Assembly: GCA_031414955.1 (NCBI GenBank)
Contig: JANOQV010000102.1
Location: forward strand, 1 to 64,000
Source: Pedosphaera sp.
GTDB lineage: Bacteria > Verrucomicrobiota > Verrucomicrobiia > Limisphaerales > SIBH01
Direction of reading: 5' to 3'
DNA length: 64,000 bases
Shown: positions 36,001 to 45,000 of the stretch, piece after piece
Position numbering within the stretch: the stretch's first letter is position 1
Layout of the letters: every line of letters begins with the position of its first letter
Made by a program: the position numbers

Positions 36001-39000
36001 GCATCCGCGCAGGCAAACCGAACGAGCACTTCCTGAACGCTGACTTGTTCGCTGCTGCGTTCGTCAAACCGTGCGAAGAGTTCCGCCAGAACGTCGGCCT
36101 GCTCATGTTCGAGTTCAGTCATTTCTATCCGACCGACTTCGCCCGTGGCCGTGATTTCGTAGACGCGCTCGACCAGTTCCTCGGCAAGATTCCGAAGGGC
36201 TGGCCTTACGGCGTCGAAATCCGAAACAAGACCTTCCTGCATCCCGATTACTTCTCAGTGCTGGCCAAGCACACCGTCGCCCACGTCTACAATTCATGGG
36301 CCGACATGCCGCCCGTAGACGAGCAGATGGCGATGGCGGGCAGCCTGACGAACCCTCATCTGTGCGGCGCGAGGTTTCTCCTGCGGCCCGGTCGGAAGTA
36401 TCAGGAGGCCGTTGACCTGTTCAGCCCTTACGACCGCGTGAAAGAGCCGAACACCGAAGTTCGTGCCGCCGGGGCCAAGCTCATCAAGGGAGGCGCTGCC
36501 GCCGGAAAAGAAAAACGGAAGACGCTCATCTACGTGAACAACAGAATGGAGGGAAATGCACTGGCCACGATTGAGGCGATGGTCGAGCAGGCCGAAGTCT
36601 GACTCGATTTCTTGCAACGACTCACTGAAACTGTAGACGAGAATTGATTCGCGGACGTATGCCGAAGACGAAGAGGAAGCCCATCGAAATGCCCATCATG
36701 CCGGAGATGTGCGCGACGTGTCCGTTCCGGGAAGACAGGGACGGCGTGGACGAAGTTCGCACCGGCGTCATGCAGCGCGTGCTCAACGAAGGCAGCCAGA
36801 CCTGTCATTCGACCGGCATCGCCAACGGGGAACCGCACGACTCCCACCTGTGCCGTGGAGCCAGAAACTTTCAGTTGGAGGTTTTCGCCCGCATGGGCGT
36901 GATTGAAGAACCGACCGACGAGGCATGGGACAAGCGTTGCCAGTCGATGGGCTTGCTCAAGAGCGCAACTTCTTGAAGCGGGGTGCGCGGTCAGAGCAAC
37001 CGTTCCACGACATCAGCCGGGCTGGCCGCAGAAGTGATGGCTTGCTGAATCCGCGTCAGGTCTTTGGCGATGCTGACTGGGAGATTGGAGGTCGCGGCGA
37101 CTGTCAGGGGGCTTCCCTTCCGGCGACGCGGCGGATTTTTTCTTCTGTGGTGAGTTTGCACCAATCGTGCGGCTAAATTCATACGTTAAATACGAGTCTG
37201 GTTCCTTCCAGCACGGCATCGCCGTGAACAGCGGAAATCGGTCGAAAATTGCCCCGACATCGTTTGGAACGCAAGCCGAGTTCCACGGATGGATTGACAC
37301 TCCCAAAACGAGGGATACCGTAAGCCCTTACGGTATGCCTGAACTCACGGAACGACAGCAGCAAATCGTCGATTTCATCGACCGGCAGCAGCACAAGCGG
37401 GGCGTCACGCCTACGCTCACGGAGATTGCCGCTCACTTTGGTTTCCGCAGCGTGACGACCGTGGCCGACCACTTGCGCCTCATCCGGCAGAAGGGCTTTC
37501 TGACCGGCGGCGAGCCGGGCCAAGCGCGTTCCTTGCGCGTTATCTCTCCCCTGCACGCCCTCCGTAAGCGGGTCGTGGACATTCCTGTCTACGGCTCCAT
37601 CCCCGCCGGGTTCGCAGACGACCGGAAGCAGGAGGCGAAGGGCTGCGTGTCCATTGACATCGAGACGCTGGGCATCAAACCGACGCCACGCACGTTCGCG
37701 CTCGAAGTCCGGGGCGACTCCATGATTGGGAAGTGCATCATGGACGGCGACCTCGTGGTGCTCGAACACGGCATGACGCCGCGCACGGGCGACGTGGTTG
37801 CCGCGCTCATCGACAACGAGAGCACGCTCAAGACCTTTTTGCTCAACCGCAGCAAGCCGTTCCTCCGCGCTGAAAACCCAAAGTTTCCCGACCTCATCCC
37901 GGCGCACGAGTTGGTGATTCAGGGCGTCATGGTCGCGCTCATTAGAAAACGGAAATGAGTCTGAGTGCCCCGCGTCATTGTCCATCTCGATGCCGACGCT
38001 TTCTTCGCGTCGGTGGAACAAGCTGCCGACTGCCGCTTGCGCGGCAAGCCCATCGCGGTCGGCGGTGAGAAGCGCGGCATCATCGCCTCAGCTTCTTACG
38101 AAGCGCGAAAGTTCGGCGTCTACACGCCCATGCCCACAGTCCGGGCACGGAAGTTGTGTCCCAAGCTCATCGTGCTGCCCGGCGACTTCGACAAGTATGA
38201 GCACTTCTCCCGCTGGATGTTCAGCTACGCGCAGGACTTCACGCCGGACGTGGAGATTGCCAGCATCGACGAAGGCTACTTCGACCTGAGCGCCGTGCGG
38301 AAGCCGCCGATGACCGTGGCGGAAACCATCCGCACGGCCATCCGACAGTCGCTCAAGATTTCTGTCAGCGAGGGCGTCGGCAGCAACAAACTCGTCAGCC
38401 AGATTGCCTCGAAGCTGACCAAGCCCTGCGCGTTCAGTGAAGTGCCCGCTGGAAACGAAATCTCATTCCTCCATCCACTGCCGAACAAGTGGCTGCCCGG
38501 CGTCGGCCCCGCGACCGCGCAGCGTCTTAATGCTGCCGGGCTGGCCTACATCCGCCACATCTCGGCGACGCCCACGGACATGTTGCACATGCTGGTGGGC
38601 AACATGGCCCCCGCGCTCAAGGCGCACGCGGATGGCATCGACGAGCGCCCGGTGATGCCGATGAGCGCACCAGCCAAGTCCTACGGCCAGCAGCAGACCT
38701 TCGACGCGGACATCACGGACGAAGAGTTTGCCGAGGCCGTGCTCCGGCGCATGGCCGATGACCTGATGGCCAAGGTGCGGGCGGACGGCAAGAGCATCCG
38801 CACGCTGACCGTGAAGGTGCGCTACAACGACATGGGTGAAGACCAGTGCGGCGAGAGCCTGCTGGAACCGACCGACCTCGAAACGGATTTGTATGGTCGT
38901 CTACACGTTCTCTTCCGTCAGGCGTGGAAACGGCGCGTCAGCCTGCGGCTCGTCTCGCTCAAGCTCTCGAATGTCTACGACGGCATCTTCCGCGCTGAAC

Positions 39001-42000: not shown

Positions 42001-45000
42001 TCGGTGAGCACATCGGCCAGCAAGTCGTGACCTGCGGCCTCATCATCGAACAGCGCACGCACCATCAAATCACCGGCGAGCCGATGAAGTTCCTCACCTT
42101 GTCTGACTGGACGGGCATGGTGGAGACGGAACTCTTCGCGCCGACGTATCGCAGTTACGGACTGGCGACCGTGCGCTACCCGGTGCTCGAAGTCACCGCG
42201 ACCGTGGAGCCGTTTGAAAACGGGCGCGGGTTCTCGCTGCGCGTGCTGCACGCCGGGAAGCCACGAGCAGCGTCTACTGGCGCATCAGCTTCACCCGTGA
42301 TTGAATCGCGCCCGTGAAAGCACTCGACGAACTGTGCAAGGCCACGGGCACCTGTGCCGATGAATGGGAGTTCCTCGATGGCCCTGACAGCGGGTGCGGC
42401 GTGGATTACTGGCTCAAGCACAAGCCGACCGGCAAGGAAGCCTACGTCAATGATGACCAAGGCCATGTGAAAGTGGACTGCGAACTTGCTGGTTGAATCT
42501 ACGAAAGCGAGAGACGACGTATGCCCCAAGACCAAGAAACAGGAGCAGCAGGAGACGCCTTCGGTCGCCAGACTGCGCCACTGATTGCACAAGCCATCGG
42601 CGCGACGATGCGAGGCGGCGCGAGCAATGAAGCGGATTTCAACGGGCAGCGCATCGTCATAAAGTGTGCCGGACAGAAGACGCAGAGTGTCGGGGTTACT
42701 TACCAGATGCTCGACCGTCTTGACGCCATCATCGCTGCGTTCGAGCAGGGCGACGGTGCGTTCGAGGTCATCTCGTTGCCAGCCGACGTATACCGTCAAC
42801 GCATGACTGAAACGCAAAGTCGTGGTGCATCTGCGGGCGCAGTCGGCATCGTCACGAAGAGCGTTTTCATTTCCGATGGACGCCCCATCTCAACTGTCCG
42901 TCCGCACTAATCATCGCAATTCCCCACGGCACCCCAGCGCGAACATCTTCGCGCCGATGCGGCAGAGCGCCTCGTGATACTCGCTGCTGAGATGGTCGAG
43001 GCTCTCGTTGTGCCCGAACTCGTGGATGATGAGTTGCACCACGTCGTCGGTGATGCCGCGCTCGAACCAGTCCGCGCCGAGCCGGAACTTGTTAAAGACC
43101 AGTTCGCCGCCGGGGCCGTAGGACGCGCCGCCGAGATGGTGAGGCGTGGAACAGAACTTCACGACAATCGAGCGGGACAAAACTTTGTCTGCCACACGCT
43201 GCGCGAACACGGCGACCTCGCGCATCCCGTCCGTCCACTTTGATTCGGGAATCCATTCACGGAACACGGCGGCGTTCGGGTCGTCTTCACCTGTCCAAAC
43301 TTTCGGGCCGGGCGTCACCTGACCGGCGGGCTTGATGGCTTCGGCGCTCTTCACGTTCTTCCACGCGCTCGCTGACATCATGCCGCCGTGGACGACCGTG
43401 TAGCCCTCACTGACCGCGAGCTTGTTTGCCTCCGGGTCTGAGGGGTCGAAGGCCACGCGCTTTTCGCCGAAGCGTTGGCTCACGTAGCTCTGGACGGCCT
43501 CGGAGGTGCAGTCAGGTGAAGTCATCGCTGTCTCGGCCCACTCGCTGTTCACGTCCTCCGGGCCAAGAAGTGCGTGCATCTGATTGAAGACGCCCACGCG
43601 CACTTGCCGGAGAAATCCCGGCGGCACGTTCTCGCGGTCGATGGTGAGCGGCACCTTCTGGCCGATGTCGTAGTGCCACTTGTCTCCCGTCTCCACGACC
43701 GGGATGCCCATTTCGTAAAGCATCGCCGTCTCGCCGGGCTGCGGCGTGAAAAGCCGCACGCTCGTCTCACGATTCACCCGGCGGAGAAATCCATCCGCGC
43801 TCGCGACCTCCGTGGGTAACGTGGTGGTGAACTGCTGCAACTCACTGCGAGGTTCAAGCGTAGTGCCGTTGAACACCGTCTCGATGCCCGCCGGGCAAAT
43901 CAGCTTCCTCACCTGATGCTCGACAGCGCGGCACTCGTCCTCGGTCATCCGCAGCAGGCACTCGATGCGGCTGCCGACCGGCTGACGTGTCCGTAGTGTG
44001 TGCCGACCATCGGCATCGAAACGGATGCCGCCCTTGGTCGTGCGGATGGTCACTTCATCACTGATGGCCAGCACGAGCTTCTCGCCGAAGTTGAAGCGTC
44101 CGCGCTGCTGCGGGTTGGACTTCTTCGCCGACTCGGCGAAGAGCGTGAAGGCGTGGCTCAGGTCGTGGAAGCCTTCCGGGGCATCGTCCTCGACGACCAG
44201 CAGCACCCGGTTGCGGCCACGGTATTCGAGCGTCGCGCTGACCTTGGTGACGCCGGATTCATCCCACGCATTTTGGACAAGCTCGAACAGGACGAACTCC
44301 TTGCCCTTGCGTTCAAGAATTCGCGCCAGCCCGTGCTTATCAACTTCAAACCAGTTCTTCATCATCCATACATTTTACCAGAGGCGTTTTGGAAAAGTGG
44401 TGGATTTGGCTGGTTCCATTGGTGCAAACCCTTGCCAGCACAGTGCGAAAATAAACCGCTTGACGGGTTTTGAGCGGAATCCGAACAGGGTAAACGACGG
44501 CAACAAATCGGGCAAATGAGTCAGGTGCGCCGCACGCTCACTGATGTCACTTTGCGGCTCGACGGAAGAAGCCGTCCGGGTCGAAGCCGGTGTCCTTCAA
44601 CGCTCGCGCCCGAAGCGCGGTCGCCACGAAGGCTTCATCCTCAGCAGCGGCAGCCAGAGCTTCGTGAACAAGCAGCACGCCGGGTGTGCCCAGTTCGTCA
44701 GCGCCAACGCGACCGCGCTGGACGTGCCACGGCAGCCACGCACCGGGTCGAGCGTCGGCTGGCGGCTCACTGTCGTTGCAGACGTAGGCGTCTTCGTTCA
44801 GCACGGAGCGCAACACAATCACCGAGGCACGCTGCCCTGCTTCGGGCAGGTCGCTGGTGTGGCGGACGAGTGACTCAAGCCACGGGTCTGGATTCACCGG
44901 GTCGAAGGGCGTGCTTGTTTTCCAATTCCAATCGAGTGGGTTCATCAATGTATCGAGGTCGAGGCCGGTGACGGACACAGCAGGGTCAGCCAAGTCCGGC

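What a model noticed while it worked through the whole genome (the two positions that open the first line are those of the whole stretch)
37335..42317. LexA-linked fusion of an active Y-family polymerase to DnaE2: a one-chain double-polymerase mutasome, in three copies
Three genes (g01706 C102; g02352 C143:7555-11928; g00352 C21:5988-10544; 1450-1518 aa) join a complete DinB-like Y-family polymerase to a complete DnaE2/ImuC-like C-family polymerase in one reading frame, each directly preceded by its own lexA paralogue; the tables show no separate dinB, imuA or imuB. I read this as a new SOS mutasome in which the inactive adaptor ImuB of the ImuA-ImuB-DnaE2 system is replaced by a catalytically intact Pol IV module covalently tied to DnaE2. 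New would be a third architecture of bacterial damage-induced mutagenesis, typical of Verrucomicrobiota, kept in several LexA-controlled copies.
Evidence so far: pfam.tsv: IMS 8-150, IMS_C 238-337, PHP 423-548, DNA_pol3_alpha 672-943, finger 948-1110, HHH_6 1183-1267 on one gene. Y-family catalytic motifs kept (VHLDADAFF..., SIDEGYFDL; call 75); C-family catalytic Asp kept (PDIDIDF and K-I/L-D aligned to the replicative DnaE1 g00907; call 76). The only IMS-bearing genes are these three; one RecA, one DnaE1; three LexA (g01705, g02353, g00353) each 6-49 nt upstream on the same strand. g01706 and g02352 are 95.8% identical, their LexA 89%; g00352 64%. g01706 abuts a 36-kb Ssp island ending at tRNA-Gly(CCC); g02352 lies near an FtsK-like gene. 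1648 proteins of 797-2538 aa match residues 1-700 at E<=1e-3; the best 120 carry both PF00817 and PF07733, name [...]
(Added by a program. Inside this text positions count along the whole contig: contig position 1 is position 1 of the stretch shown here. "Call 12" and the like, gene names such as g00115 and contig names such as C1 are that model's own, and its searches are not shown. The text may have been shortened before it was handed on; [...] marks where a part breaks off. The agent that wrote the report below was given it as the finding of a first reader that could run no searches.)

Follow-up and report, generated by a model that had tools for sequence, protein, structure and literature searches.

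The report
Fused twin-polymerase with private LexA switch
One gene joins two apparently working error-prone DNA-copying enzymes into a single chain that probably docks on RecA, and a dedicated repressor whose DNA lock-and-key has changed many times among close relatives controls it, giving a compact test bed for how damage-bypass polymerases cooperate and how LexA changes its binding site.

Summary
Confirmed. Window 37965-42317 is one 1450-aa frame joining a Y-family polymerase to an accessory DnaE2, behind lexA; two more copies lie in the assembly. Catalytic residues of both halves are kept in 89-90 of 90 aligned proteins.

It is not an ImuB-replaced ImuABC. The C half groups with DnaE2B, and a RecA-NT motif sits between the halves (RecA model 0.68 vs best control 0.01). 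Relatives keep the pair as two adjacent genes. So this is the fused form of the predicted, untested DnaE2B-PolY-RecA mutasome (PMC6511836, PMC12926913). It is common in its own order (90 of 250 genomes), not across the phylum (1 of 300 sampled, among listed matches). The scan noted this fusion before on other DNA (e1-3618136).

Added here: each lexA sits behind its own palindromic operator overlapping the -10 box. recA has no such box. About ten operator classes occur among 73 cassettes and track LexA helix 3 (R/K41 with base A: 20/20 vs 0/51; 9 of 9 independent pairs). Operator plus DNA-binding domain look swapped between cassettes that are otherwise about 92% identical. No activity is shown.

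The parts
37294..37299 (+). -35 hexamer TTGACA of the lexA promoter
   Evidence: a -35-like hexamer precedes 80 of 86 distinct lexA genes
37316..37335 (+). perfect palindrome TACCGTAA-N4-TTACGGTA, inferred LexA operator; left arm doubles as -10 (TAnnnT); right arm ends on the A of the start ATG
   Evidence: only match in the window, 0 in 100 shuffles; only 2 sites in 6.5 Mb at <=2 mismatches, both at lexA; left arm is TAnnnT in 31 of 31 loci with 16-nt spacing, some duplicates included
37335..37958 (+). lexA, 207 aa; helix 3 SVTTVADH; A91-G92 cleavage site, S129 and K166 intact
   Evidence: 86 of 86 distinct homologues keep these residues
37965..42317 (+). PolY-DnaE2B fusion ORF, 1450 aa, GTG start
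37986..38975 (+). Y-family polymerase core and little finger; D9, F14 steric gate, Y45, R48, D102, E103
   Evidence: dN/dS 0.02-0.11 in 5 pairs
38991..39008 (+). degenerate clamp-binding-like motif RAELAL (E345, L346, L348 conserved 98-100%)
   Evidence: sits where unfused relatives have QLDLF/QLEMF; function inferred
39030..39110 (+). RecA-NT motif (aa 356-382, helix-Gly-strand ending LRGHD)
   Evidence: D366, L368, R369, R379, H381, D382 in 100% of 90; model with RecA 0.68 vs best control 0.01
39111..39221 (+). variable linker (27-47 aa in 90 sequences) at the former gene junction
   Evidence: low pLDDT
39222..39914 (+). PHP domain with degraded metal site (no proofreading expected)
   Evidence: HxH reads HS/RS, TDH reads TDT/ADA, NDVHY reads SVHY/PVHY
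39978..41765 (+). C-family palm/thumb, fingers and HhH; D774, D776, D940 intact
   Evidence: 90 of 90
41823..41837 (+). QGWLL, possible weak internal clamp motif of the DnaE2 half
   Evidence: QxWL in 20 of 22 full-length copies, absent in the C21 copy; function inferred
42012..42254 (+). OB-like C-terminal domain; chain ends without the tau-binding CTD
   Evidence: alignment; no CTD is the DnaE2 pattern in PMC3919608; OB boundaries approximate
35631..36602 (+). DUF72 gene, a frequent but optional neighbour
   Evidence: also at C143, 3 of 19 relatives' flanks and the Desulfosarcina lexA-DUF72-(Y-like)-dnaE2 operon

Best explanation
A two-gene, self-regulating damage-induced mutagenesis cassette. 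SHOWN (sequence): lexA plus one chain of active-type PolY, clamp-like motif, RecA-NT motif, linker and active-type DnaE2B without proofreading or CTD; a private operator over the promoter. INFERRED: LexA represses only its own promoter. RecA* filaments on damaged DNA trigger LexA self-cleavage although recA itself carries no box. The fusion is made, binds RecA through the RecA-NT helix and the clamp through the weak motifs. PolY inserts opposite the lesion and the tethered DnaE2B extends or fills the gap, error-prone. It arose by in-frame joining of a translationally coupled polY-dnaE2B pair. Because each LexA has essentially one target, and operator and DNA-binding domain lie within about 250 bp, lock and key can change or be swapped together.
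For: Active-site conservation 89-90 of 90. Purifying selection on both halves. DnaE2B grouping 100/99. Split relatives G005 (ATGA overlap) and G004 (lexA-polY-dnaE2; stop and ATG overlap, then an N gap). Y half kept alone in 3 order genomes, so it is more than an adaptor. RecA model 0.68 vs best control 0.01, runs agree in at least 81% of contacts, partner pLDDT at least 67; the mark was reached by 116 of 157 solved and 2 of 215 mismatched pairs. Operators unique to their lexA (G425 and G337). No box at recA in the own genome and 5 of 5 order genomes. Palindrome of at least 7/8 pairs in 62 of 86 vs about 1% of shuffles. Helix-base covariation. Sharp identity step in L001 vs L003.
Against: No biochemistry or expression data. 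The inserter/extender split is by analogy only. hhalign of the motif to RecA gave P=0.036, no better than the best of 23 control windows, and the complex pass may come from likeness to solved RecA filaments. The DnaE2B placement rests on 4 references, LG+G4, with composition warnings, and the clade is distinct from the Bacteroidetes one. The T42-C rule had only 4 independent pairs (2 agree, 2 no change). 12 of 86 lexA scored 4-5 of 8, at chance level. In G434 the fusion is unlinked from lexA but shares its box, so control in trans exists.
Confidence: 0.66

Rival explanations
1. The fusion is a tolerated accident: two polymerases that work independently on one chain (co-expression and 1:1 stoichiometry only, no hand-off).
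For: Linker variable and disordered, pTM 0.64. Split and Y-only forms persist. G005 (split) is sister to fused G174 in both trees, so fusion or fission happened more than once.
Against: Kept in frame in 90 of 107 order genomes with a hit. Linker length confined to 27-47 aa in the 90 aligned. Published models support a PolY-DnaE2B-RecA complex, ipTM about 0.75 (supplement table of PMC12926913).
Confidence: 0.17
2. One reading: an ImuA-ImuB-DnaE2 mutasome whose ImuB was replaced by Pol IV, within a phylum-wide SOS regulon.
For: Same gene order lexA-Y-dnaE2; no ImuA or ImuB-C found; RecA-NT is also an ImuB feature.
Against: The C half is outside DnaE2A/X. Unfused relatives already pair an active PolY with this DnaE2. 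Restricted to the order in my samples. recA unboxed.
Confidence: 0.05
3. Only one half is the working polymerase in vivo (for example PolY as clamp/RecA adaptor for DnaE2, as with ImuB, or the reverse).
For: In ImuABC only DnaE2 is catalytic (PMC6511836). Intact motifs do not prove activity.
Against: All Y catalytic and dNTP-binding residues invariant, lowest dN/dS in the Y core in most pairs. Y-only derivatives exist.
Confidence: 0.07
4. Operator diversity is driven by selection among mobile cassettes (phage-immunity-like orthogonality), not by relaxed constraint. This competes only with the regulatory part of the best explanation.
For: C143 copy lies 12 kb from an integrase at tRNA-Cys; C102 shares patchy 75-93% homology with it. 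Neighbours differ at all 19 loci. The 3 other genomes with two long copies carry different operator classes (G474 CTGT/TTAT, G422 TTAC/CTGT, G448 CCGT/CCAT). DBD dN 0.15-0.46 vs 0.02-0.07 for the LexA C-domain.
Against: 3 of 3 differing is expected about half the time from class frequencies (my estimate). C102 and C143 share a class. No hit in viral contigs and no close plasmid relative (best 32.6%). Many relatives sit among housekeeping genes.
Confidence: 0.3

Closest known systems
DnaE2B-PolY-RecA module of Bacteroidetes (Timinskas & Venclovas 2019, PMC6511836; Timinskas et al. 2026, PMC12926913)
   Same: Two apparently active polymerases, PolY with RecA-NT, DnaE2B, no ImuA/ImuB/ImuB-C, adjacent genes.
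   Different: One polypeptide; a separate DnaE2B subclade whose unfused members are in Verrucomicrobiota, Acidobacteriota- and Phycisphaerae-labelled records; canonical winged-helix LexA in cis instead of the Bacteroidetes phage-repressor-like regulator. Neither form has experimental data in the passages I read.
ImuA-ImuB-DnaE2(A) mutasome
   Same: lexA-Y-dnaE2 order, dead PHP, no CTD, RecA-NT-bearing Y component.
   Different: Y site intact, no ImuA, no ImuB-C, different DnaE2 clade, covalent link.
PolY-RecA (DinB-like with RecA-NT), e.g. the solo PolY of Verrucomicrobiota family f5
   Same: 42-49% identical Y half with clamp motif and RecA-NT tail.
   Different: No DnaE2 or lexA within 1.5 kb in the 26 loci checked.
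LexA motif divergence after duplication (model in PMC8565304; Verrucomicrobia box TGTTC-N4-GAACA, Erill 2016, recalled, paper not held)
   Same: The CTGTTC-N4-GAACAG class contains that box; divergence in paralogues and regulon shrinkage are described.
   Different: That paper counts 17 motifs in all bacteria and calls them very stable across broad groups. Here about ten half-site variants occur in one order, tied to single helix residues and switching between near-identical cassettes.

Membership tests
Active Y-family polymerase | IMS and little-finger domains with D, DE catalytic triad, steric gate, SYEAR | tested here: met
Active Y-family polymerase | nucleotidyl transfer or lesion bypass activity | not testable with these tools
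   needs purified protein
DinB/Pol IV equivalog | score over an NCBIfam Pol IV cut-off | tested here: not met
   closest PRK02406 250.9 vs 256; others further below
DnaE2 (accessory C family) | DDD palm, degraded PHP site, no CTD, separate DnaE1 present | tested here: met
DnaE2A/ImuC (ImuABC) | inside the DnaE2A clade; C-terminal S-[RH]-D-F tail (motif name recalled; seen in 4 of 6 references) | tested here: not met
DnaE2A/ImuC (ImuABC) | ImuA and inactive ImuB with ImuB-C in the genome | tested here: not met
   (bin 95.9% complete; the ImuA model passes its cut-off in none of the 14 controls, so that test is weak)
DnaE2B-PolY-RecA module | DnaE2 in the B group | tested here: met
   100/99 branch with 4 B-type references against E1/E3/A/X; small reference set, B labels assigned by me from gene context
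DnaE2B-PolY-RecA module | partner PolY active and bearing RecA-NT | tested here: met
   profile test alone inconclusive (P=0.036)
DnaE2B-PolY-RecA module | PolY and DnaE2 as separate subunits | tested here: not met
   single frame; this is the variant feature
DnaE2B-PolY-RecA module | PolY of the Bacteroidetes PolY2 group | tested here: inconclusive
   separate long branch, no outgroup
LexA repressor | winged-helix domain, A-G site, Ser/Lys dyad, palindromic box at own promoter | tested here: met
   binding itself untested
Global SOS regulon | same box at recA | tested here: not met
   (own genome and 5 of 5 order genomes)
Integrative island cargo | integrase at a tRNA and att repeats flanking the cassette | tested here: inconclusive
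   integrase-like genes at tRNA-Cys (C143) and tRNA-Gly (C102), each just under the Pfam cut-off or at it; partner repeats lie on other contigs

The most novel reading that the evidence does not exclude
A one-chain translesion machine in which a RecA-docked Y polymerase hands the primer to a tethered, proofreading-dead C-family extender. It travels as an autonomous two-gene cassette whose operator-plus-helix module is exchanged like a phage immunity region, so that cassettes in one cell are orthogonal. These cassettes would then be the cradle of new LexA motifs and give a readable amino-acid-to-base code for LexA.
Probability: 0.3. Interest if true: 0.82.

Novelty: new variant of a known kind. 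Interest (0 to 1): 0.6.

Why it matters
(1) The fusion is Rosetta-stone support for the predicted but untested PolY-DnaE2B-RecA complex. It offers one expressible chain with two separately mutable active sites, which makes the two-polymerase hand-off in bacterial lesion bypass directly testable. (2) How LexA changes its box while the box is stable across whole phyla is an open question (PMC8565304). Here 73 natural repressor-operator pairs in about ten classes, with single-residue rules and a near-identical pair that differs only in operator and DNA-binding domain, let it be tested by binding assays. They could also supply orthogonal damage-inducible switches.

Tried and rejected
Assembly artefact: rejected. 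Independent conserved fusion in Bacteroidetes: 3 of 35 longer hits were Bacteroidetes-like, each partial or internally deleted; P0245/P0246 belong to the G174 branch; weak search. Long frames in G278, G266, G029: no DnaE half. Viral contigs: no match. A palindrome at C12:87085 lies inside a long ORF, not a promoter. The three TGTTC-N4-GAACA sites in the own genome have no -35 beside them. Extra boxes in G343 and G434 are near the control count (3 and 4 vs 2); one precedes an Mrr-like gene (label recalled). hhalign of the RecA-NT motif was not above controls. No RNA holder listed. Laid contigs show two variants about 10% apart at similar depth in two runs of one study, possibly the source sample; not used as support. 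No att repeat on C102. Literature: searches found no description of the fusion. Seen: PMC12926913 abstract, passages, part 1 of 2 of section 19, and the supplement, which is cut before the DnaE2 and Y-family rows, so a fused entry there cannot be excluded; PMC6511836, PMC3919608, PMC8565304, PMC7739468 passages only; Erill 2016 not held (recalled).
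Full report
OBSERVATION. The window holds lexA (37335-37958) and, 6 nt later, one 1450-aa frame (37965-42317) with IMS, IMS_C, PHP, Pol III alpha, finger and HhH domains. tblastn finds two more copies, C143 (95.7%) and C21 (63-65%), each behind a lexA. No other IMS gene passes the cut-off; no ImuA or ImuB-C was found; there is one recA. The bin is 95.9% complete and 5.84% contaminated and holds a second dnaE1 fragment, so three copies per cell is likely but unproven. The frame is real: 19 of 26 GTDB loci carry it unbroken, and the other 7 are contig-truncated, gapped or frameshifted. AlphaFold2 of residues 1-1200 gives pLDDT 80.9 and pTM 0.64, with a low-confidence junction. 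Foldseek and phmmer match each half to Pol III alpha and Pol IV separately; no listed solved chain spans both.

ANATOMY. In 90 aligned fusions (the window protein plus 89 of the top 120 hits), D9 and the F/Y steric gate are kept in 89 (one gap), and Y45, R48, D102, E103, D774, D776 and D940 in all 90. The PHP metal site is degraded and there is no CTD, the DnaE2 pattern described in PMC3919608. dN/dS is 0.02-0.11 for the Y core and 0.05-0.12 for the C palm/fingers in five pairs. After the little finger come a degenerate clamp-like motif and a strongly conserved helix-Gly-strand (356-382) at the place where unfused relatives carry their RecA-NT tail. hhalign puts it exactly on the RecA N-terminus but only at P=0.036, not above the best control window. 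A complex prediction with the genome's own RecA core scores 0.68 against a best control of 0.01; runs agree in at least 81% of contacts and partner pLDDT is at least 67; the mark was reached by 116 of 157 solved and 2 of 215 mismatched pairs. RecA filaments are solved, so the pass shows likeness to that interface, not binding. A variable 27-47-aa linker follows.

ORIGIN AND RANGE. In a 35-protein tree the C half and its unfused relatives form a 100/100 clade. It lies with Bacteroidetes dinB-linked and Desulfosarcina DnaE2 (B type by gene context) on one side of a 100/99 branch, with DnaE1/E3/E2A/E2X on the other (LG+G4, few references). G005 keeps polY and dnaE2 as two genes overlapping in ATGA behind a TGTTC-N4-GAACA box; G004 keeps lexA-polY-dnaE2. 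G005 is sister to fused G174 in both trees, so fusion or fission occurred more than once. In the order, 107 of 250 sampled genomes hit at E<=1e-60. Of these, 90 have a frame of at least 1340 aa, 8 of 487-1053 aa and 9 under 480 aa. Three of the short ones are close Y halves with no dnaE2 in the fetched downstream DNA (one contig ends 0.9 kb on). In 300 genomes of the wider class and phylum, only G174 showed a fusion among the 150 listed matches; 237 weaker matches were not listed. The own genus has it in 2 of 6.

LITERATURE. PMC6511836 describes a Bacteroidetes system that 'involves two apparently active polymerases' plus RecA. PMC12926913 lists it as DnaE2B-PolY-RecA among 11 modules, only two of them characterised, with model ipTM about 0.75. 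'Fusion' or 'fused' passages in these papers do not concern PolY with DnaE2. The survey's supplement is cut before its DnaE2 rows. Eight searches found no account of the fusion. The scan noted it once before on other DNA (e1-3618136), after I had reached the same reading.

REGULATION (added here). Upstream of the window's lexA lie TTGACA, 16 nt, and the perfect palindrome TACCGTAA-N4-TTACGGTA ending on the start codon. At up to 2 mismatches it occurs only at the C102 and C143 lexA genes; C21 has a different one, CTACTC-N4-GAGTAG, found once. recA has none, here or in 5 of 5 order genomes. In G425 and G337 the cassette lexA is the only one found and its box pattern occurs once. Among 86 distinct full-length lexA (from 96 loci) all keep the cleavage chemistry, and 62 have a palindrome of at least 7 of 8 pairs against about 1% of shuffles. 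I kept the 73 with at least 6 pairs (dropping 12 with 4-5 pairs and L108, whose window missed its box). Half-sites fall into CTGT, CTAT, CCGT, CTGC, CCAT, CTAC, GCGT, GTGT, TTAT/TTAC and singletons. With E. coli numbering (recalled), R/K at helix position 41 goes with A at base 3 in 20 of 20 versus 0 of 51; T42 with C at base 2 in 15 of 16 versus 3 of 57; an aromatic 45 with T at base 1 in 3 of 3 versus 0 of 68. On a 72-row Y-domain tree (36 of 68 forks open) the half-site changes 30 times. The 41 rule holds in 9 of 9 independent pairs (p=0.004); the 42 rule has too few pairs. L001 and L003 are 88-100% identical from about lexA codon 80 on but 58-70% over the DNA-binding domain, and have different operators (dN/dS 0.46/0.47 against 0.016/0.32 for the Y core), which reads as a module swap. 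Against strict privacy: in G434 an unlinked lexA shares its box with the fusion promoter, and L014 and L016 carry LexA without a DNA-binding domain.

CONTEXT. C143's copy is 12 kb from an integrase-like gene at tRNA-Cys among arsenic genes. C102's is 34 kb from one at tRNA-Gly among metal-resistance and defence-like genes. The two share patchy 75-93% collinear homology. C21's lies among housekeeping genes. No att pair was found on one contig. Flanks differ at all 19 relatives, with DUF72 in 3. Relocation is frequent; self-mobility is not shown.

MECHANISM. Shown: domain order, intact sites, motifs, private palindromes, covariation. Inferred: RecA* cleaves the cassette LexA; the chain docks on RecA and the clamp; PolY inserts at the lesion and DnaE2B extends without proofreading; single-target regulation lets lock and key move together (0.66). 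Rivals: independent halves (0.17), one silent half (0.07), ImuABC derivative (0.05). Immunity-like selection for the operator diversity: 0.3.

VERDICT. A real, lineage-specific fused variant of a predicted mutasome type, with an unusually fluid LexA-operator pair. New variant of a known kind; interest 0.6.

Noticed in passing
window 29398-31137 and 31174-32568 (-): A CzcA-like RND efflux gene (label recalled, not scanned) appears as two ORFs, inside a metal-resistance cluster with a NicO transporter, outer-membrane efflux proteins and a multicopper oxidase.
   Followed up: no
   Followed up: partly
window 50896-51145 and 51903-52152: 250-bp direct duplication, 92% identical, with a relative on C300.
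   Followed up: no
L014:4001-4357, L016:2045-2506: Cassette LexA reduced to the peptidase domain (UmuD-like, 118-153 aa) but still behind a palindrome; L014 has TGTTC-N4-GAACA. Could be a UmuD-like subunit or a decaying repressor.
   Followed up: no
L006:4169-4990: A DNA alkylation repair gene (PF08713) sits between lexA and the fusion.
   Followed up: no
C143:12652-13461, L002:3456-4304, L223: Mrr-like nuclease with a topoisomerase zinc ribbon directly upstream of lexA in two island-type loci; in G343 another Mrr-like gene lies behind a LexA-type box.
   Followed up: partly
window 36939-42295: One contig of run X4 joins across the whole cassette (side 29 nt), hinting at a related element without it; weak.
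   Followed up: no
proteins P0250-P0252: About 680-aa proteins joining Y-family domains to DUF72 (clusters of 13-39 members), echoing the DUF72 neighbour.
   Followed up: no
G000:C122:11499-13043: Second dnaE1 fragment at a contig end, 88.5% nt to C54; probably a contaminating relative.
   Followed up: yes
L002, L003, L010, L021, L024: Record titles name Bifidobacteriaceae, Klebsiella, Chitinophaga, Bifidobacterium or Akkermansia, yet L002 and L010 carry LexA starts and upstream boxes identical to those from same-order genomes G535 and G448; the titles are likely mislabels, not transfer.
   Followed up: partly
G000:C167:8935-9138: Weak fourth S24 peptidase hit.
   Followed up: no
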